From Escherichia coli 042 (lineage in GTDB: Bacteria; Pseudomonadota; Gammaproteobacteria; Enterobacterales; Enterobacteriaceae), in assembly GCF_000027125.1 (NCBI RefSeq), contig NC_017626.1: a stretch of DNA of 64,000 bases. One strand, written 5' to 3'. Position numbers and translations under genes: made by a program. Under the pieces are notes generated by a model. That model did no database searches. It had not been told where the DNA came from and worked only from the letters and a program-made list of their open reading frames with translations. Positions 33,849 to 42,614 of this stretch are shown piece after piece (within the stretch, counting starts at the first letter, position 1; each line of letters opens with the position of its first letter).

Positions 33849-34301
33849 ATGGCAGAAACCAAAATTGTTGTCGGTCCGCAGCCATTCAGCGTAGGAGAAG
33901 AGTATCCGTGGTTGGCGGAGCGTGATGAAGACGGTGCGGTAGTCACCTTTACCGGTAAGGTGCGCAACCATAACCTTGGCGACAGCGTCAAAGCATTAAC
34001 CCTCGAACACTATCCGGGGATGACTGAAAAAGCACTGGCAGAAATTGTCGATGAAGCGCGTAACCGCTGGCCGCTGGGGCGCGTCACGGTGATTCACCGC
34101 ATCGGGGAATTATGGCCGGGAGATGAAATCGTTTTTGTCGGTGTCACCAGTGCGCATCGCAGCAGTGCGTTTGAAGCCGGGCAGTTTATTATGGATTATC
34201 TCAAAACCCGCGCACCGTTCTGGAAGCGTGAAGCCACGCCGGAAGGCGACCGCTGGGTTGAAGCTCGGGAGAGCGATCAGCAGGCGGCAAAACGCTGGTA
34301 G
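33849..34301 (+). CDS. moaE: Molybdopterin synthase catalytic subunit
   Basis: 150-aa ORF; operon synteny. Confidence 0.9.
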   Translation: MAETKIVVGPQPFSVGEEYPWLAERDEDGAVVTFTGKVRNHNLGDSVKALTLEHYPGMTEKALAEIVDEARNRWPLGRVTVIHRIGELWPGDEIVFVGVTSAHRSSAFEAGQFIMDYLKTRAPFWKREATPEGDRWVEARESDQQAAKRW

Positions 34302-34437
34302 TTTTTTGTTAGCCGGATAAGGCACCGCTGCGTCCGGCAATTTCACCGCTCAGTACATGCGTTTACGCTGCGTCGATGCACAGCCTCATCATTTTGCAGT
34401 ATCCTTAAGATATTCCTTATATCTTCAGGAGATCGTC

Positions 34438-35142
34438 ATGGACAGATTCCCACGTTCTGATTCAATTGTACAACCCCGGGCTGGCTTGCAAACTTATATG
34501 GCGCAAGTCTATGGCTGGATGACCGTTGGCTTGTTGCTGACCGCATTTGTTGCCTGGTATGCGGCTAATTCCGCGGCCGTGATGGAGCTGTTGTTCACTA
34601 ACCGTGTCTTTTTAATCGGTCTGATCATCGCGCAATTAGCATTGGTTATTGTGTTATCAGCGATGATTCAAAAGCTGAGCGCAGGTGCAACGACGATGCT
34701 CTTTATGCTTTATTCGGCGCTGACGGGTCTTACGCTTTCCAGTATATTCATTGTCTATACCGCTGCTTCTATCGCCAGTACTTTCGTCGTTACTGCCGGG
34801 ATGTTCGGCGCAATGAGCCTGTACGGTTACACCACGAAGCGCGATTTAAGCGGCTTTGGCAATATGCTGTTTATGGCGTTAATCGGTATTGTCATAGCCT
34901 CGCTGGTCAATTTCTGGCTGAAAAGCGAAGCGTTGATGTGGGCAGTCACCTACATCGGCGTGATTGTCTTTGTCGGATTGACGGCGTATGACACGCAGAA
35001 ACTGAAAAATATGGGTGAGCAGATTGATACCCGCGACACGTCGAACCTGCGCAAATATTCCATTCTTGGCGCGTTAACCTTGTATCTGGACTTCATCAAC
35101 CTGTTCCTGATGTTGCTGCGGATCTTCGGCAACCGCCGTTAA
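34438..35142 (+). CDS. ybhL: BAX inhibitor-1 family inner membrane protein
   Basis: Start at MDRFPRSDSIVQPRAGL; multi-TM. Confidence 0.85.
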   Translation: MDRFPRSDSIVQPRAGLQTYMAQVYGWMTVGLLLTAFVAWYAANSAAVMELLFTNRVFLIGLIIAQLALVIVLSAMIQKLSAGATTMLFMLYSALTGLTLSSIFIVYTAASIASTFVVTAGMFGAMSLYGYTTKRDLSGFGNMLFMALIGIVIASLVNFWLKSEALMWAVTYIGVIVFVGLTAYDTQKLKNMGEQIDTRDTSNLRKYSILGALTLYLDFINLFLMLLRIFGNRR

Positions 35143-35348
35143 TTCTTTTTTCACCATCAATATCCCGGCCATGTGTCGGGATTTTTTTCTTACGAAAAAA
35201 CGACACTTAACAAGTACCAGGTATAAAATATGCCTTATGAGCGAGCGGAAGCGTTTTCCGTATCCATAAATACAAAAGTATTTTGTATGCGTGGTTTTGA
35301 ATTTATTGATGGTAAGTATTAATGTTTTTTCTAAGGACAACTAAAAGA

Positions 35349-36062
35349 ATGGAATCATACTCGCAAAACAGCAATAAATTAGATTTTCAGCACGAGGCCA
35401 GGATATTAAACGGCATATGGCTCATTACAGCTTTGGGTTTGGCGGCAACCGCAGGACTGGCCTGGGTAGCGAAGCATCTTGAAATTACGGCAACAAAATA
35501 TGATTCACCGCAAATGTATGTCGCCATAGGATTATTATTACTTTGTATGTATGGTTTAAGTAAGGATATCAACAAGATAAATGCCGCCATCGCAGGCCTA
35601 ATATATCTGTTTTTACTCTCTTTGGTGGCGATTGTCGTTGCTAGTTAAGTTCCTGTATCTGCCATTATCGTCGTGTTCAGCACCGCGGGCGCGATGTTTT
35701 TAATCAGTATGCTGGCCGGTTTATTATTTAATGTTGATCCTTGTTCTCATCGTTTTATCATTATGATGATGTTGACAGGGTTGGCCCTGGTGATCATCGT
35801 GAATGCCGCATTAATGAGTGAACGGCCCATTTGGGTAATAAGTTGCTTAATGATTGTGTTATGGTCAGGCATTATCTCGCATGGACGAAATAAGCTCCTT
35901 GAACTGGCAGGAAAATGCCATAGCGAAGAGTTGTGGAGTCCGGTTCGTTGCGCTTTTACAGGTGTATTAACACTCTATTACTATTTTATCGGCTTCTTTG
36001 GGATTCTTGCAGCAATAGCGATAACGCTTGTCTGGCAAAGGCATACGCGGTTTCATATTTAA
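35349..36062 (+). pseudogene. ybhM: ybhM interrupted by an in-frame TAA at 35646..35648
   Basis: Two ORF-track fragments (to 35648, and from 35673) are in the same frame and separated only by a single TAA; overall span equals a full-length gene. Confidence 0.7.
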
Positions 36063-36120
36063 CGCACTTTCGACTTACGTTTAGAAATGTAGTATCTGAA
36101 ATATAATAGTGGAGAATATC

Positions 36121-36498
36121 ATGCAGTTAGTTTGTACCATCGATAAAAAATATATGGATAAATTTATGGCTATACTGTTTTCAGGAGTGTTACATTCCTT
36201 GAAAGAAGGTTCAATAACTATAGATGAATCTGAACTACTTGTTTTTAGACCTTTTATTTCCAGGCTTTTGCACAAAAATAGTTGTGATAAAGAGTTAATA
36301 GATATAATCGATCTTGGTTGTGAGTTTGAAGATATTGAGTCCCTGGTTCCTGAGCATCTTGATGATGCTATAAAAAACTTAATAACCAAAGTAAGTGATT
36401 TTACATATGCAACAAAAGATAATTATCCCTTGAGTGATAAAATGGAACATGCAGTATCTTTTATGTTTACAAATAACAACGGGCATGATGTGCATTAA
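36121..36498 (+). CDS. Island ORF-A, acidic hypothetical protein
   Basis: ATG with GGAGA RBS; AT-rich; C-terminus ...DNYPLSDKMEHAVSFMFTNNNGHDVH recurs in the remnant at 37705..37830. Confidence 0.5.
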   Translation: MQLVCTIDKKYMDKFMAILFSGVLHSLKEGSITIDESELLVFRPFISRLLHKNSCDKELIDIIDLGCEFEDIESLVPEHLDDAIKNLITKVSDFTYATKDNYPLSDKMEHAVSFMFTNNNGHDVH

Positions 36499-36586
36499 TG
36501 TGGAATGCTAATAAATTGACCATAATTATGTATTCTTAGAATAGTATTGCAAATGTTAATTATGAAAATAAATATTGTGGATTATA

Positions 36587-37045
36587 ATGAAAAATAAAAT
36601 CGAGTTTGATCAGGCTATTAAAAATGCTTATCTCGATATGGCGTTTCCCAACTTTGCATTTGTGATGGAGAAGTATAACTCATTAAAATATAAAGGCATA
36701 ATTACTGAGTTGAGTTCACGGTTTGATGTAAGAGATAACACTGAATTAAATAATGATGTTTGTTTTTCATTAGAAGTTGTTTTGCAAGAAGGTATTGCCT
36801 TTTTATATATGTCTTTTGTCGGGCAATATGCATTTATAATATTCAAAAACGACGTTATAACAAAACATGCAAATATAAATGCAGATGTAGCAGGTTTAAT
36901 TGATATATTGCTTTGTCATGAATTCATGATTTTGGATAAAGAATTTTTACTAAGTGAAGTTAGTTGCGATATTTGTCCGTTTTTAGTCGAAGCAAATAAT
37001 AAATATTTAAATTATTTATTCGCTCGTGGATTGAAAATAAAATAG
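36587..37045 (+). CDS. Island ORF-B, hypothetical protein
   Basis: 152-aa AT-rich ORF co-directional with ORF-A (track start 36575). Confidence 0.45.
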   Translation: MKNKIEFDQAIKNAYLDMAFPNFAFVMEKYNSLKYKGIITELSSRFDVRDNTELNNDVCFSLEVVLQEGIAFLYMSFVGQYAFIIFKNDVITKHANINADVAGLIDILLCHEFMILDKEFLLSEVSCDICPFLVEANNKYLNYLFARGLKIK

Positions 37046-37104
37046 CGTTATTGTTAACTAGTTTAAGATATTGAAATTTGTTATTTAACATATCAGGATG
37101 TTCT

Positions 37105-37704
37105 ATGTTAATAAAGTTAATTGATTTACAAACTATCAAGATTTTCGAAAAAATAAACTCATCTTCATCCGATTTAAGTAAGGAAATAAAAATAAAATCG
37201 CCGCTTCTAATTCCCTATGAAAATCAAGGGGTAACATTTTATTGTGATGAGCTATATGTATTTGATTCCGATGGTTATATTGTATTTGGTCATGATTTAG
37301 ATGGTTATTTTATTGTTAGCGTAAAAAACAAGAAAGTTTATTACTTGTATGATATAGACGAATGCGCAAATTTTACGATGATGTATTGCAATTCTGGAAT
37401 AAATGATTTTATTATATTCAATAATATTTTTATGCAGGCGGTTTTTAAACAATCAGAATTGATGGAAAAACAATTGTTAACAGATGATGAAATTTTATCA
37501 GATGCAATGGATGCTATATTTACCCAATGCGACAGTGAGGCTATGAAAGATGATGCCTTCTGGGGCTTAAGATGCTACGAGCTTCGCGACGGCTTTTTTC
37601 CTTTAAATGATGCCAAAATTAAATTTTATAGTGAAATGGAAAAAGGTCCTCATCAAGGCAAAAGTGAATCCATTCACAAGAGCAAGTTGAACAAAAATGA
37701 TTAA
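37105..37704 (+). CDS. Island ORF-C, hypothetical protein (possible immunity-protein-like fold)
   Basis: 199-aa ORF with AGGA RBS; C-terminal ...DAFWGLRCYELRDGFFPL... motif. Confidence 0.45.
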   Translation: MLIKLIDLQTIKIFEKINSSSSDLSKEIKIKSPLLIPYENQGVTFYCDELYVFDSDGYIVFGHDLDGYFIVSVKNKKVYYLYDIDECANFTMMYCNSGINDFIIFNNIFMQAVFKQSELMEKQLLTDDEILSDAMDAIFTQCDSEAMKDDAFWGLRCYELRDGFFPLNDAKIKFYSEMEKGPHQGKSESIHKSKLNKND

Positions 37705-37830
37705 ATGAGAGGCTCTTCACATCGCCGCTTCATTATTCGTCCAGAAAAAGATGATTATCCCTTAAGTGATGAAATGGAAAATGTGGTTTCCTTGGGATTT
37801 AGCAATAATAAGGATTTGCAGAATGTTTAA
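37705..37830 (+). pseudogene. Remnant of an ORF-A paralogue fused to a ybhN-3'-like repeat
   Basis: 41-codon frame MRGSSHRRFIIRPEKDDYPLSDEMENVVSLGFSNNKDLQNV; last ~26 aa align with the ORF-A C-terminus at ~75% nucleotide identity. Confidence 0.45.
37715..37741. repeat. Direct repeat copy 1: duplicate of the ybhN 3' terminus
   Basis: CTTCACATCGCCGCTTCATT is identical to 38046..38065, with partial similarity extending further. Confidence 0.7.
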
Positions 37831-38044
37831 AGATAAAACTGTCGCAGCGGAAATTAGTGCATTAATGCTTGAGATTGGTGCGAAATTAGATAATTCCGTT
37901 TCAGTTGTTCAGATAAGTTGTGATGAATCTGAGTTTAATATTTATCGGGCCGCCGTTGGTGAAATTATGGGGCGCATGCTAATCGACATCATGAACCCCA
38001 TTTATAAACAGCATCCCGAACTTAAACAAAAAGAACTTAACTAA
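37826..38044 (+). CDS. Island ORF-D, small hypothetical protein
   Basis: 72-aa ORF from MFKDKTVAAEISALMLEIGAKL...; ATG overlaps the remnant stop. Confidence 0.4.
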   Translation, partial: FKDKTVAAEISALMLEIGAKLDNSVSVVQISCDESEFNIYRAAVGEIMGRMLIDIMNPIYKQHPELKQKELN

Positions 38045-38045
38045 A

Positions 38046-38072
38046 CTTCACATCGCCGCTTCATTTTTCGCC
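38046..38072. repeat. Direct repeat copy 2: the genuine ybhN stop and last codons
   Basis: Same 20-mer; encodes the ybhN C-terminus ...AKNEAAM* on the minus strand. Confidence 0.7.
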
Positions 38073-39004
38073 CGCAGCTTCTTCGCCTGGCTTTCCAGTA
38101 ACAGGTAACAGATCAGCGCCAGCAGCAGTGGGATAAAGTAATACAGCACACGATAAGCGAGTAGGGCGGCGATAATTGTGCCTTTAGATGTATGCTCCCC
38201 TGCCAGTAGCGCGATAAACACCGCTTCCAGCACACCAATTCCCGCCGGAATATGCACGATGACACCAGCAATACTACTAACCAGCAACACGCCCAGTACA
38301 AAGAAATAGTTCACGCTTTGACCAAGTAACAGCCAGATTATCGCTCCCATTACCATCCAGTTAACGCTGGAAATCAGCATCTGGGCGAGGGCAAATTTCC
38401 ATGAGGGCAGCACCAGTTTTTGCCCTTTGATGGTCATATGGCGGTGCTTCGCGAAAGCGCAAAACCACAAATAAACCGCGATAATCATCAATAAGCCAAT
38501 GCCGAGAATACGCAGTGTAGTTTGATCGACATACCAGTGATCCGGCAACTCCACCACGCCTGCGGTAAAGATAATCCCCGCCAGTAAAATATAGCCCAGC
38601 CAGTTGGTGGTAATACTCAGCGAGAAAATCCGCGTGATAGTGCTGCCCGGTAACCCTAGCCGGGAGTACAAACGATAGCGCATACCAATGCCGCCGACCC
38701 AGGTACTGAGTGTCAGGTTGAAGGCGTAGCAGATAAACGACACCAGCATCACCTGGCGCTTCGCCAGTTTGTGACCGCAGTAGAAGCGGGCGAGCAGGTC
38801 ATAGCAGCCGTAAATCAGATAACTGACGACCACCAGCCCGACCGCACTAAGCAGCGCAACGCGATTGTAGTCGCGGATGACCTTCCAGACCTCTTCCCAG
38901 TCCACCTTTTTGGCGTAGACCACCAGCAACACAATCACCGCGATAAAAAACAGCCAGGTGAGGATCTTCTTTGCTAAGCGCCAGCGCGGGTGTGATTTAC
39001 TCAT
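38048..39004 (-). CDS. ybhN: Inner membrane protein (UPF0104 family)
   Basis: 318-aa multi-TM ORF; translationally coupled to clsB. Confidence 0.85.
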   Translation of the reverse strand: MSKSHPRWRLAKKILTWLFFIAVIVLLVVYAKKVDWEEVWKVIRDYNRVALLSAVGLVVVSYLIYGCYDLLARFYCGHKLAKRQVMLVSFICYAFNLTLSTWVGGIGMRYRLYSRLGLPGSTITRIFSLSITTNWLGYILLAGIIFTAGVVELPDHWYVDQTTLRILGIGLLMIIAVYLWFCAFAKHRHMTIKGQKLVLPSWKFALAQMLISSVNWMVMGAIIWLLLGQSVNYFFVLGVLLVSSIAGVIVHIPAGIGVLEAVFIALLAGEHTSKGTIIAALLAYRVLYYFIPLLLALICYLLLESQAKKLRAKNEAAM

Positions 39005-40245
39005 CAGGGTTTTACCCCCGTGTTTTCAGTTTCTACCCGATCCTGCGTTTCCATTGTCGGTTGGGCGGGCGGGTCAACCTGCGCCAGACGTGGTGTGTGT
39101 GCCGGAAGCCAGCCCACCAGAGCCGGGAAGTGGCGTAAAAAGTGGAAGGCCAGCACGCTTTTAGTCAGGTTCCACCAGGTGCGTTTCGGCAGCATGGTTT
39201 CATCGACCTGCTGACAATCTGCGGCGATAATGCCGTTTAGATTATCACGCAGCGTCTGGTTAAAATGACGATCGTGGATGATGACATTTGCTTCGAGATT
39301 CAGTGACAAACTGAGCGGATCGAGATTACTGGACCCTACCGTCGCCCAGTGATCGTCCATCAATGCCACTTTGCCGTGGAGCGGACGGCGGCGGTACTCA
39401 AACACCTGAACGCCGCCTTTAACCAGATAGTTATACAGCAAGCGCGCGCCGACTCTGACAATCGGCATATCCGGTTCGCCCTGAATGATCAGTTTGATCC
39501 GCACCCCGCGCCGTGCCGCTTTACGCAAGGCGTGTAAAAATCGATAGCCGGGGAAGAAGTAGGCGTTGGCGATAATGACTTCTCGCCGCGCCTGAGTGAG
39601 CATTTTCAGATAGTGGCGTTCGATATCATCGCGATGTTCTTCGTTATCGCGCCAGACCAGCAATACCTGCGCTTCTCCCGGCTGGCGGTTCTCTTCTGCT
39701 TTATGATGACGTCGCCACCAGCGTCGTGCCGCGCTCTGTCCTGGCAGGTTTTCCAGCTCAAACTGGAGAATATCTTCGACAATCGGCCCTTCGAGGCGTA
39801 CCGCGTAATCCTGTTTAGCCTCCGGACCGTAGCTGGACATATGCTCGGCGGAGTAATTCAGCCCGCCAATAAAGGCGATACGCGCGTCGATCACCACAAT
39901 TTTGCGATGCATCCGGCGAAACACATTGGTGCGCATACCAAAAAGGCGAGGGCGGGGATCGTAGTAGCGGAACACCACGCCAGCTGCCGTCAGTTCATTG
40001 ACAAACTCATCGCTGAGATCCGGCGAACCGTAGCCATCCAGCAAGACTTCCGCTTTAACCCCGCGTTGTGCTGCTGCCAGTAGCGCCGCATGCAGCTGTT
40101 TGCCGACGTCATCCTCAAACCAGATAAACGTTTCAAGAATGATACGTTCTTGCGCCTCGCCAATCGCCTTAAACACCGCGGGATAATATTGCTCGCCGTT
40201 TTCCAGCAACTGGATCTTATTGCCTTCGCGCCAGCTACATTTCAT
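39004..40245 (-). CDS. clsB: Cardiolipin synthase B (PLD superfamily)
   Basis: 413-aa ORF; synteny. Confidence 0.85.
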
Positions 40246-41003
40246 AAATGAATCTCCGCACTTAAAGGGGCATGATCAGAAAGGTGTCGCCATGTCCGCA
40301 GCGGCAAGGCGGTTGGCGCGCTGGCGCTGGCATTTTTGACGTAGATCCTGTCCAGTCGTAGTAGAGGAAATTGCACCGGAAACGTGCGCGCCGGGCGTCC
40401 GTGGGCGCGGGTAAATATCTCATCCAGCCCGGCCTGCACTTTTAACGGATGATTAGCTTTTTGCCGCCAGTCGTTGAAATCACCCGCCACCAATACCGGT
40501 TCGCCGTCCGGTAGCTCATTCACCCATTCGGCGAGCATCGCAAGCTGCGCCTGACGATGCGCCTCACGCAGGCCCAGATGTACGCACATCACATGAATCG
40601 CTTTCCCGGTCATCGGCGGCACAATGCGGCAGTAGAGCACGCCGCGCTTTTCCGCACCATCGACCGAAACATCACGATTCTCATAATGTTCAATGGGATA
40701 ACGTGAAAGAACCGCGTTACCGTGATGCCCTTCCGGGTATACGGCATTGCGACCGTAGGCAAAATCGCTCCACATAGTGTCGGCGAGAAACTCGTAGTGC
40801 GAAGTATCTGGCCAGTTTTCCACATGCAGCGGATGAACTTCGTGCGCGCCCATCACTTCCTGCAGGCAAACAATATCGGCGCTGACGGTACGCACGGCGT
40901 CGCGAAGTTCCGGCAAAATGAAGCGTCGGTTAAACGCGGTAAAGCCTTTGTGAATATTGATAGTGAGCACCTTGAACGAAAATTGTTGTGTTTGATCGGG
41001 CAT
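40242..41003 (-). CDS. ybhP: Endonuclease/exonuclease/phosphatase family protein
   Basis: 253-aa ORF; synteny. Confidence 0.8.
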
Positions 41004-41135
41004 AATTTTCCTGTCTTTGCCTCTTATCTCATTGAAATAGTGTAGTCGGCGTCACAAAAAGGTGCGGTCTTACGGAATTTTCCGTAAAGTTCGGTACTCT
41101 GAGTAAGTAGAGATAAATTCTTCAGGAGAGAAGCC

Positions 41136-41546
41136 ATGAAGTGGCAACAACGTGTTCGTGTCGCAACTGGTCTAAGTTGCTGGCAGATTATGTTGCATTT
41201 ACTGGTAGTGGCGCTGCTGGTGGTGGGCTGGATGAGTAAGACTCTGGTTCACGTCGGCGTGGGATTATGCGCACTGTATTGTGTCACGGTAGTGATGATG
41301 CTGGTGTTTCAGCGCCACCCCGAGCAACGCTGGCGTGAGGTGGCAGACGTGCTGGAAGAGCTGACTACGACCTGGTATTTTGGCGCAGCGCTGATTGTGC
41401 TGTGGCTGTTGTCCCGTGTACTGGAAAACAACTTTTTGCTGGCAATTGCAGGGCTGGCAATCCTTGCCGGCCCGGCGGTAGTGTCTTTGCTGGCGAAAGA
41501 TAAGAAGTTACATCACCTTACGTCTAAACATCGCGTACGCCGCTGA
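41136..41546 (+). CDS. ybhQ: Inner membrane protein
   Basis: 136-aa ORF with four TM helices. Confidence 0.8.
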
Positions 41547-42614
41547 CCCTGTCGTGGCCGTTATCACCAGTAGCGGCCACAAACTATTCCACACAATATC
41601 CAGACTCGCATCCTTCAAATAAATCTGCTTGGTAATGTCCGTAAAGTGGCGAATAGGGTTAATCCACGTCAGGTTTTGCAGCCATACTGGCATGTTTTCC
41701 ACCGGCGAAACGTAACCGGAAAGGAGAATGGCGGGCATCATAAAAACAAACACGCCGATAAACGCCTGCTGTTGTGTCGAGCAGAGTGATGAAATCAACA
41801 GACCGAATCCCACCAGCGATAAACCGTAAATCACCATCGTAAAGTAGAACAGCGCCAGCGATCCGGCGAAGGGGATTTGATACGCCCAGATACCAATCGC
41901 CAGCACAATGGTGGCCTGGAAGGTGGCGACAATTAATGCCGGTACGGCCTTGCCGATGAATATCTGCCAGGTTGTGAGCGGCGAAACCAGTAACTGATCG
42001 AGCGTACCTTGTTCACGTTCGCGGGCAACAGAAAGTGAAGTGACGATCATCACGCCAATAGTGGTGATCATGGCGATCAGCGACGGCACCACAAACCATT
42101 TGTAGTCGAGATTCGGGTTATACCAGTTGCGTACCACCAGCTCGCTGTTGTTGGGTTTCGGTTTTCCTTCCAGCAGCTCCTGCTGATAATTTTTGACGAT
42201 CTGTTGCAGGTAGTTGGCGGCAATTTGCGCACTGTTGGAGTTACGCCCGTCGAGGATCAACTGCAACGGCGCGGTCTGGAAGGTATCCAGTTTGCGCGAG
42301 AAGTCAGCCGGGAAACGCACCAGGAGTAACGCCTTTTGTGTGTCGATGGTCGGGCGGATCTCCTGCGGGCTTTTCAGCAGCAGCACATGGGTAAAGGCGC
42401 TGGCGCGGGCAAAACGTTGAGTAAGTTCTACCGAGTGCTCGCCGTTATCTTCATCGTAGATGGCGATGGTGGCGTTGGTCACTTCCAGCGTGGCGGCGAA
42501 CGGGAACAGGATCACCTGAATCAGCACGGGTAAAATCAGAATTGCGCGGGTTTGCGGTTCGCGCAGCAGCGACTGCAACTCTTTGCGGATTAACGTCCAT
42601 AAGCGATGAAACAT
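41508..42614 (-). CDS. ybhR: ABC-2 transporter permease
   Basis: 368-aa ORF; operon with ybhS, ybhF, ybhG. Confidence 0.85.

What the first reader, a model, noticed from the sequence alone, without database searches (positions are those of the whole stretch)
37705..38072. Cassette-like junctions: the ybhN 3' terminus is duplicated at the ends of both ORF-C and ORF-D
The 20-mer CTTCACATCGCCGCTTCATT (with a further ~7 bp partly conserved) occurs at 37715 and again at 38046, where it is the real stop codon and last codons of ybhN. The ~330 bp between the copies contains only ORF-D. This is a target-duplication or site-specific recombination signature, implying ORF-D (or the whole array) was added by recombination at the ybhN 3' end. 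It suggests a locus that accumulates cassettes.
Basis: seen in the sequence. Interest (0 to 1): 0.7.

Follow-up and report, generated by a model that had tools for sequence, protein, structure and literature searches.

The report
Recombination scar joining two immunity-gene alleles
The duplicated end of the ybhN gene is real, but it is a one-off scar left when two alternative versions of a small, strain-variable E. coli gene islet (probably orphan anti-toxin immunity genes) were spliced together out of register, not the mark of a dedicated cassette-capture system.

Summary
The repeat is real: 28 nt (26/28 identical, first 20 exact) at 37715-37742 and 38046-38073. The second copy is the true stop codon and last codons of ybhN. 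It is not REP-like, since it occurs once per E. coli genome. The window carries a rare AT-rich islet between ybhM and ybhN: DUF3969 (A), ORF-B, a SUKH-4 immunity protein (C) and ORF-D. Both parental forms of this islet exist in other strains. In "type 3" (GF4-3, N96), A-B-C abuts the ybhN stop through the same junction and there is no ORF-D. In "type 2" (34 of 5,426 complete E. coli genomes, plus E. albertii and E. fergusonii), a full DUF3969 gene overlaps ORF-D by 8 nt and ORF-D abuts ybhN. Type-3 homology to the window ends at 37739 and type-2 homology starts at 37742. So the 330-bp unit is not ORF-D alone. It is a ybhN relic, then the last 28 codons of a second DUF3969 gene, then ORF-D. One out-of-register illegitimate crossover between the two alleles, probably homology-facilitated, explains both this repeat and a second 66-nt repeat. 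I found no integrase, hairpin or recurrent site. This is an ordinary mechanism documented unusually cleanly.

The parts
36080..36107 (+). Best sigma-70-like promoter match (TTTAGA-16-TATAAT) just upstream of ORF-A; a possible promoter for the A-B-C-(41 aa)-D gene string
   Evidence: 10 of 12 hexamer positions match. The number of promoter-like sites in the region is not above shuffles, so this is weak evidence.
36121..36498 (+). ORF-A, DUF3969 family protein, 125 aa
   Evidence: Pfam PF13108, E = 3e-16. 92-95% identical homologues are annotated 'DUF3969 family protein' in E. coli.
36414..36479 (+). Copy 1 of the second direct repeat: the 3' end of ORF-A, paralogous to 37746-37811
   Evidence: family D1: 66 nt, 77% identity.
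36587..37045 (+). ORF-B, 152 aa, no known family; found only in Escherichia
   Evidence: No Pfam, NCBIfam, PADLOC or PHROGs match. Only 3 protein clusters among 5.8 billion proteins.
37105..37704 (+). ORF-C, 199 aa, SUKH-4 family immunity protein with no adjacent toxin gene (orphan)
   Evidence: Pfam PF14435, E = 6.9e-6. NCBI names the N96 homologue 'SUKH-4 family immunity protein'.
37715..37742 (.). Relic of the ybhN 3' end (stop codon plus last ~8 codons, antisense to the islet genes). It was carried along with the A-B-C block from an allele in which ORF-C abuts ybhN.
   Evidence: The junction 'aaatgagaggctCTTCACATCG' is identical in N96, where it is the real ybhN end. Homology to GF4-3 and N96 runs through the relic and stops at 37739.
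37740..37745 (.). Illegitimate recombination breakpoint, with at most 3 nt of microhomology
   Evidence: Type-3 alleles align up to 37739. Type-2 alleles align from 37742 (L010, L011, L012, L021), 37745 (E. albertii) or 37746 (PT62).
37743..37830 (+). 3' remnant (last 28 codons plus stop) of a second, type-2 DUF3969 gene (A')
   Evidence: 87-94% identical to the 3' ends of full-length DUF3969 genes that precede ORF-D in L010, L015 and L021, but only 77% identical to ORF-A of the same genome.
37705..37830 (+). Chimeric 41-codon ORF: an ATG in the ORF-C/ybhN spacer, then the antisense ybhN relic, then an in-frame A' remnant. It keeps the native 8-nt overlap (ATGTTTAA) with the ORF-D start.
   Evidence: It is called as a gene in L004. 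Full-length A' has the same 8-nt overlap with ORF-D in L010.
37823..38044 (+). ORF-D, 73 aa, predicted helical hairpin; member of a large uncharacterised family of small proteins
   Evidence: Homologues lie at the same locus in E. coli, Shigella, E. albertii and E. fergusonii. dN/dS is 0.11-0.50. 520 cluster representatives have E <= 1e-3. AlphaFold2 pLDDT 96, helices 5-32 and 35-63. No Pfam match.
38030..38045 (.). 16 nt (last four codons and stop of ORF-D, plus 1 nt) that are also present in the K-12 ybhM-ybhN spacer
   Evidence: K-12 homology resumes at 38030.
38046..38073 (-). Copy 2 of the 28-nt repeat: the genuine 3' end of ybhN (gene 38048-39004, - strand)
   Evidence: Single copy in 5,422 of 5,426 complete E. 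coli genomes.

Best explanation
The duplicated ybhN terminus is the scar of a single out-of-register (illegitimate) recombination between two alternative alleles of a strain-variable islet in the ybhM-ybhN gap. Allele 'type 3' is ybhM-A(DUF3969)-B-C(SUKH-4)|ybhN, with ORF-C abutting the ybhN stop codon. Allele 'type 2' is ...A'(DUF3969)-D|ybhN, with A' overlapping ORF-D by 8 nt. DNA from one allele met a chromosome carrying the other. One side recombined in flanking homology. The other end was joined illegitimately, connecting a point ~25-28 nt inside ybhN of the type-3 allele to a point ~85 nt before the end of A' in the type-2 allele. The product, A-B-C-[ybhN relic]-[A' remnant]-D-ybhN, duplicates the two segments that both alleles share on either side of the join. 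These are the ybhN end (28-nt repeat) and the DUF3969 3' end (66-nt repeat). The most likely specific route is homology-facilitated illegitimate recombination after transduction or conjugation; this step is inferred. The functional result is stacking: the strain keeps ORF-D and also has ORF-B and the SUKH-4 immunity protein. That fits selection for a broader repertoire of orphan immunity genes against toxins delivered by competitors. The immunity function is inferred from family membership of ORF-C only. Shown: the anatomy, both parental alleles, the sharp breakpoint and the uniqueness of the repeat. Inferred: the recombination pathway, the direction of transfer and the selective benefit.
For: 1) Both parental configurations exist. 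Type 3 is in GF4-3 and in N96 plus three other complete genomes. In N96 the ORF-C|ybhN junction 'aaatgagaggctCTTCACATCGCC' is identical to the window's relic junction. Type 2 is in 34 of 5,426 complete E. coli genomes, in L010 and L021, in E. albertii and in E. fergusonii.
2) Type-3 homology to the window ends at 37739 and type-2 homology begins at 37742-37746, so there is one sharp breakpoint.
3) The A' remnant is 87-94% identical to type-2 A' genes but only 77% identical to ORF-A in the same genome. It therefore came from another allele, not from an in-genome duplication.
4) The same event accounts for the second repeat, D1.
5) All chimeric alleles found (window, L003-L005, L026) carry an identical relic and remnant, consistent with a single origin.
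6) The 28-mer is single-copy genome-wide and has no hairpin. No recombinase lies among neighbouring genes, and the islet has no plasmid or phage match.
7) ORF-C is a SUKH-4 immunity protein. SUKH genes in toxin-less arrays have been proposed to protect against non-self toxins (PMC3113570).
[quoted passage not shown] The process has been measured in E. coli conjugation (PMC3240628).
Against: The exact parental sequences are not in the collections. The best type-3 match to A-B-C is only 92% (GF4-3), and the best type-2 matches to the A'-D unit are 91-94%. Microhomology at the join is 3 nt or less and cannot be placed exactly, because the relic has since acquired 2 substitutions. The polarity of the event (A-B-C added to a type-2 genome, or A'-D added to a type-3 genome) is unresolved. 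Type 3 could in principle arise from the chimera by deletion between the 28-nt repeats. That still requires an earlier ORF-C|ybhN adjacency to create the relic. Immunity function is untested, and ORF-A, ORF-B and ORF-D have no assigned function.
Confidence: 0.8

Rival explanations
1. Site-specific cassette capture (integron-like): the 28-mer overlapping the ybhN stop is an attachment site, and the 331-bp ORF-D unit is a mobile cassette inserted by a recombinase, regenerating the site on both sides.
For: A direct repeat brackets a unit that contains one intact small gene. Strains with and without the unit exist. The locus is hypervariable.
Against: No integrase or recombinase lies among the Pfam-annotated genes within +/-6 kb. 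Neither copy folds into a hairpin; z-scores are -0.4 to +2.2. The repeat is missing from the other gene boundaries of the array. The unit starts inside a truncated DUF3969 gene. In the widespread ORF-D alleles there is only one copy of the site, preceded by a full-length DUF3969 gene. Every chimeric allele found (window, L003-L005, L026) carries an identical relic, which fits a single origin.
Confidence: 0.04
2. In-genome tandem duplication: a segment running from inside DUF3969 to 28 nt inside ybhN was duplicated in one chromosome, and the upstream copy later had ORF-D replaced by ORF-B and ORF-C.
For: A tandem duplication would produce exactly a ybhN(28)|DUF3969-3' junction plus two pairs of direct repeats.
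Against: The two DUF3969 3' ends are 77% identical while the two ybhN ends are 93% identical. The remnant is closer (87-94%) to A' genes of other strains than to ORF-A of its own genome. This route needs an extra precise replacement ending exactly at the relic. It also needs independent deletions to explain the old, diverged type-3 alleles (81-92% identical across A-B-C) that share the ORF-C|ybhN junction.
Confidence: 0.08
3. Transposon-type target-site duplication or a REP/BIME-like repeated element.
For: The direct repeats flank a short insert. A REP element has inserted elsewhere in this islet in strain N96.
Against: At 28 nt and imperfect, the repeat is much longer than target-site duplications, which from general knowledge are 2-14 bp. 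There are no terminal inverted repeats and no transposase. The sequence occurs once per genome in 5,422 E. coli genomes and was matched exactly in only two other species representatives, both Escherichia sp.. There is no palindromic structure and no Rfam match.
Confidence: 0.01
4. Chance similarity.
For: None.
Against: A 20-mer exact repeat was seen in 0 of 100 shuffles. The relic continues an alignment to type-3 alleles in which the same sequence is the real ybhN end.
Confidence: 0

Closest known systems
Orphan immunity-gene arrays built by displacement, proposed to occur through homology-facilitated illegitimate recombination (Vibrio cholerae T6SS auxiliary clusters, Kirchberger et al. 2017, PMC5361080; Rhs/CDI orphan modules, Poole et al. 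2011, PMC3150448)
   Same: Incoming DNA from a different allele is added while the resident small gene is kept and shifted. Remnants of a flanking gene are left as direct repeats at module borders. No integrase is involved. The result is a stacked set of putative immunity genes. One member is from a recognised immunity superfamily (SUKH-4).
   Different: No toxin or effector gene and no secretion-system cluster is present at this locus. The conserved 'anchor' whose end is duplicated is a housekeeping membrane-protein gene (ybhN) read from the opposite strand, not the conserved part of a toxin gene. Only one displacement step is visible. Both parental alleles are still extant, so the event can be reconstructed to within about 3 nt.
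Homology-facilitated illegitimate recombination as measured experimentally (E. coli conjugation, Amarir-Bouhram et al. 2011, PMC3240628; Streptococcus, Pseudomonas and Acinetobacter as cited in PMC5361080)
   Same: One join lies in homology and the other is illegitimate with little or no microhomology. Net gain of DNA occurs with partial duplication of recipient sequence.
   Different: Here the pathway is only inferred from the product. The homologous anchor and the direction of transfer cannot be identified.
SUKH-superfamily poly-immunity loci (Zhang, Iyer and Aravind 2011, PMC3113570)
   Same: A SUKH-4 gene lies in a short same-strand array with other small, unrelated, strain-variable genes and no adjacent toxin. 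The array is AT-rich (GC 22-39% against ~50-57% in the flanks).
   Different: It holds only one SUKH gene. The neighbours (DUF3969, ORF-B, ORF-D) are not known immunity families. The islet sits next to an expansion of Bax-inhibitor-1 paralogues, which has not been described for such loci.
Integron gene cassettes with attC sites
   Same: The superficial anatomy matches: promoter-less small ORFs in one orientation, with a repeat at two ORF ends.
   Different: There is no integrase, no attC hairpin and no repeat at the other boundaries, and the 'cassette' begins inside a truncated gene.

Membership tests
Integron-type cassette array | Tyrosine-recombinase (IntI) gene adjacent to the array | tested here: not met
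   Genes within +/-6 kb of the same architecture (L003, L004) are moaA-E, ybhL, ybhM, the islet, ybhN, clsB, ybhP, ybhQ, ybhR, ybhS and ybhF. None carries a recombinase Pfam domain. ORFs in window 34000-42000 show the same core genes.
Integron-type cassette array | Imperfect-palindrome attC site able to fold as a hairpin at each cassette 3' end | tested here: not met
   Single-strand DNA folds of both copies on both strands give -0.1 to -4.6 kcal/mol and z-scores of -0.4 to +2.2. The repeat is absent after ORF-A and ORF-B.
Transposable element with target-site duplication | Short exact duplication flanking an element with terminal inverted repeats and/or a transposase | tested here: not met
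   The repeat is 28 nt and imperfect. No inverted repeats lie at the unit ends. The only ORFs inside are a gene remnant and ORF-D.
REP/BIME or other dispersed repeat | Many copies per genome, palindromic | tested here: not met
   5,427 places in 5,422 E. coli genomes, median 1 per genome; every listed full-length match lies under ybhN. The few extra places equal those found for the whole 2.4-kb region, so they are probably large duplications. There are 2 exact hits in 100,044 species representatives. No hairpin.
Illegitimate (homology-facilitated) recombination scar between alleles | Both parental arrangements exist independently | tested here: met
   Type 3: GF4-3, N96 and three others. Type 2: 34 complete genomes plus L010, L021, E. 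albertii and E. fergusonii.
Illegitimate (homology-facilitated) recombination scar between alleles | Single sharp breakpoint with little or no microhomology; duplicated segments are those shared by both parents on either side of the join | tested here: met
   The breakpoint lies at 37740-37745. The duplicated segments are the ybhN end and the DUF3969 3' end. The remnant is closer to type-2 alleles than to its own ORF-A.
Illegitimate (homology-facilitated) recombination scar between alleles | Homologous anchor on one side of the incoming DNA | tested here: inconclusive
   Identity profiles of both flanks against six genomes are mosaic and show no import boundary.
Polymorphic-toxin orphan immunity locus | Member(s) of recognised immunity-protein families | tested here: met
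   ORF-C matches SUKH-4 (PF14435) at E = 6.9e-6. NCBI gives the same name to the N96 homologue. ORF-A, ORF-B and ORF-D are not in any immunity family.
Polymorphic-toxin orphan immunity locus | No cognate toxin adjacent; strain-variable presence | tested here: met
   No toxin domain appears in neighbouring genes. A-B-C is present in 5 and A'-D in 34 of 5,426 complete E. coli genomes.
Polymorphic-toxin orphan immunity locus | Protein neutralises a specific delivered toxin | not testable with these tools
   This needs competition or co-expression assays.

The most novel reading that the evidence does not exclude
The ybhN 3' terminus is a recurrently used recombination anchor. This would make the ybhM-ybhN gap an integrase-independent collector that stacks orphan immunity genes (and Bax-inhibitor-1 paralogues) by repeated out-of-register exchanges between alleles. 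The in-frame 41-codon fusion ORF would then be retained because it preserves translational coupling of ORF-D. The window would be the first captured step of a general, directional array-building process at a housekeeping-gene border.
Probability: 0.07. Interest if true: 0.6.

Novelty: new member of a known kind. Interest (0 to 1): 0.3.

Why it matters
Arrays of orphan immunity genes are thought to grow by rare illegitimate joins that add new modules while keeping old ones. That model mostly rests on comparing complex arrays whose intermediates are missing. Here both parental alleles and the product are all extant in Escherichia, and the join can be placed to within about 3 nt. This gives a clean natural example and a simple PCR-testable locus. 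It also flags the ybhL-ybhN interval as an undescribed hypervariable spot. That interval carries a SUKH-4 gene, a DUF3969 gene and a widespread but uncharacterised 73-aa helical-hairpin family. For genome annotation, the 41-codon ORF at 37705-37830 should be treated as a fusion artefact, and ORF-D should be treated as a real gene.

Tried and rejected
- NCBIfam, PADLOC and PHROGs scans of ORF-A to ORF-D gave nothing significant.
- Pfam on ORF-B, ORF-D and 58 diverse ORF-D relatives gave nothing.
- A Foldseek search of the confident ORF-D model against the PDB gave only non-specific helical hairpins such as EsxE/F, with E > 1, so no function is assigned.
- The AlphaFold2 model of DUF3969 from a shallow alignment had pLDDT 52 and was unusable, so it was not searched.
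- Genomic contexts of two remote ORF-D relatives were short metagenome contigs (neighbours rhomboid, ParDE) and uninformative.
- A full-text literature search for 'DUF3969' found 0 papers.
- I tried to infer the direction of transfer from sliding identity profiles of both flanks against six genomes. The region is mosaic and shows no clear import boundary.
- The metagenome scan for the ORF-C|ybhN junction gave only one contig, essentially the same strain at 99.97%.
- Rfam found nothing. The islet has no counterpart on plasmids or phages.
- No terminator-like sites were found, and promoter-like sites were not above shuffles.

Full report
**Observation**

The window is an Escherichia coli chromosome segment with the gene order moaE-ybhL-ybhM-[islet]-ybhN-clsB-ybhP-ybhQ-ybhR. 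The 20-mer CTTCACATCGCCGCTTCATT occurs exactly twice, at 37715 and 38046, even when 3 mismatches are allowed. None was expected in shuffles. It extends to a 28-nt direct repeat with 26/28 identical. Copy 2 covers the stop codon and last codons of ybhN (38048..39004, - strand).

One detail needs correcting. The interval between the copies is not only ORF-D. Its first ~88 nt belong to a truncated DUF3969 gene, and that remnant forms a second direct repeat (37746-37811 versus 36414-36479, 77% identical).

**Setting**

K-12 has only a 35-bp spacer between the convergent genes ybhM and ybhN. The window instead has a ~2-kb AT-rich islet at 36063-38029, with GC of 22-39% against ~50-57% in the flanks. 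It contains four same-strand genes:

- ORF-A: DUF3969 family, Pfam E = 3e-16.
- ORF-B: no known family, found only in Escherichia.
- ORF-C: SUKH-4 immunity protein, E = 6.9e-6.
- ORF-D: 73 aa.

ORF-D is a real gene. It has dN/dS of 0.11-0.50 across alleles, and its AlphaFold2 model is a helical hairpin with pLDDT 96. It belongs to a large uncharacterised family, with 520 cluster representatives at E <= 1e-3 and no Pfam match. The islet has no counterpart on plasmids or phages, and no recombinase lies nearby.

**Alleles in other strains**

- Type 1 (K-12-like, about 99% of complete E. coli genomes): no islet. The 16 nt next to ybhN equal the last codons of ORF-D.
- Type 2: a full-length DUF3969 gene (A') overlaps ORF-D by 8 nt, and ORF-D abuts ybhN. 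It is found in 34 of 5,426 complete E. coli genomes, in L010 and L021 and in E. fergusonii. In E. albertii, ybhN-clsB-ybhP are deleted but a degenerate ybhN end remains.
- Type 3: A-B-C with ORF-C abutting the ybhN stop and no ORF-D. It is found in GF4-3 (92% identity) and in N96 plus three others (81%). In N96 the junction 'aaatgagaggctCTTCACATCG' is identical to the junction at the window's relic.
- Type 4 (the window): found only in four metagenome or read-assembly contigs, L003-L005 at 98.3-98.7% and L026 at 99.97%. It is in none of the 5,426 complete genomes.

**Breakpoint**

Type-3 alleles align with the window through ORF-C, the 10-nt spacer and the ybhN relic, and stop at 37739. Type-2 alleles align from 37742-37746 onward into ybhN. 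The remnant at 37743-37830 is 87-94% identical to type-2 A' 3' ends but only 77% identical to ORF-A of the same genome.

The window allele is therefore type-3 sequence on the left, including ~25-28 nt of ybhN, joined to type-2 sequence on the right, which starts ~85 nt before the end of A'. Microhomology at the join is 3 nt or less. A single out-of-register crossover between the two alleles explains both direct repeats. They are the two segments that the alleles share on either side of the join.

The relic shows that an ORF-C|ybhN adjacency (type 3) existed before the chimera. The type-3 alleles are also much more diverged from each other (81-92%) than the relic is from ybhN (26/28). All chimeric alleles share an identical relic and remnant, which fits a single origin.

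**Mechanism and its rivals**

The product has the form expected of homology-facilitated illegitimate recombination, with one end in flanking homology and the other joined illegitimately. This process occurs in E. coli at low frequency (PMC3240628). It has also been proposed to build orphan immunity arrays in Vibrio and Rhs loci (PMC5361080). The pathway and the polarity are inferred. Flank identity profiles did not reveal which allele was the recipient.

- Site-specific, integron-like capture is disfavoured. There is no recombinase and no hairpin. The repeat is not at the other gene boundaries, and the unit begins inside a truncated gene.
- A transposon target-site duplication or a REP element is excluded by the repeat's length and imperfection, and by its single copy per genome.
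- An in-genome tandem duplication is disfavoured by the type-2 affinity of the remnant and by the extra steps it requires.

**Function**

ORF-C belongs to the SUKH-4 immunity family. Toxin-less SUKH genes in arrays have been proposed to protect against toxins of competitors (PMC3113570). The net effect of the event is that one chromosome now carries ORF-B and ORF-C in addition to ORF-D. I therefore read the islet as an orphan immunity-type islet whose content was enlarged by the event. This reading is inferred from one family assignment only, because ORF-A, ORF-B and ORF-D have no assigned function.

The join also created an in-frame 41-codon ORF (37705-37830). It keeps the native ATGTTTAA overlap with the ORF-D start, which may preserve translational coupling. 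This is speculative.

**Verdict**

It is a one-off illegitimate-recombination scar rather than a target duplication or an attachment site. ORF-D next to ybhN is the old arrangement, not a newly inserted cassette. The finding is a new, unusually well-resolved example of a known kind of event, and its interest is modest.

Noticed in passing
window 35646-35648: ybhM carries an in-frame TAA where other strains have a Leu codon, splitting the 237-aa Bax-inhibitor-1 family gene into 108-aa and 129-aa ORFs. The 99.97%-identical metagenome contig L026 and the contig L003 have the intact gene, so this is a strain-specific nonsense mutation or a sequencing error.
   Followed up: yes
window 38030-38045; L002 (K-12) 1681-1696: The common islet-free E. 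coli allele retains the 16 nt that encode the last four codons and stop of ORF-D next to ybhN. This suggests that the K-12-type spacer is a deletion derivative of an ancestral DUF3969-ORF-D allele that is still present in E. albertii, E. fergusonii and rare E. coli.
   Followed up: partly
L013 (E. coli N96) about 4553-4700: A ~150-bp REP/BIME-like palindromic element (gcctgatgcgct...ccgcatccggca) is inserted inside the 3' end of the SUKH-4 gene in the N96-type allele, shortening the ORF.
   Followed up: no
L011, L012, L017 (window equivalents 38100-38892); L006-L009 (E. albertii; window equivalents about 38074-40854): There are independent deletions next to ORF-D. Some E. coli and Escherichia sp. 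strains lack most of ybhN, keeping ~54 nt of its 3' end. E. albertii lacks ybhN-clsB-ybhP but keeps a degenerate ybhN 3' relic after ORF-D.
   Followed up: partly
L001 1176-3385; L006-L010; L018-L020: The ybhL-ybhM interval is itself variable. It can hold one to three extra Bax-inhibitor-1/YccA paralogues, including a divergent 232-237-aa copy with no Pfam hit. In some strains of E. coli, E. albertii and E. fergusonii it holds a 553-aa sulfatase gene. An expanding set of BI-1 paralogues next to immunity-type genes has not, to my knowledge, been described.
   Followed up: no
window 37823-38044 (ORF-D) and P0031-P0178: ORF-D belongs to a large family with no Pfam model: 520 cluster representatives at E <= 1e-3, mostly 70-80 aa. 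The consensus includes ...NPIY..HP.LKP.EL. The confident predicted fold is a helical hairpin. One 1,956-aa protein (P0031) matches over 18 stretches, so it may contain repeated copies of the motif.
   Followed up: partly
L015 2182-3410; NZ_CP042298.1 (RM9088): IS2 and IS1 insertions disrupt the DUF3969 gene upstream of ORF-D in some type-2 alleles. This is further evidence that the DUF3969 partner is dispensable while ORF-D is kept.
   Followed up: no
window 37672-37739 versus L013 4703-4770: The last 68 nt of the A-B-C block (ORF-C end, spacer and relic) are 98.5% identical to N96, while the rest of A-B-C is only 81% identical to N96 and 92% to GF4-3. The islet is therefore itself a mosaic produced by homologous exchange between type-3 alleles.
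   Followed up: partly
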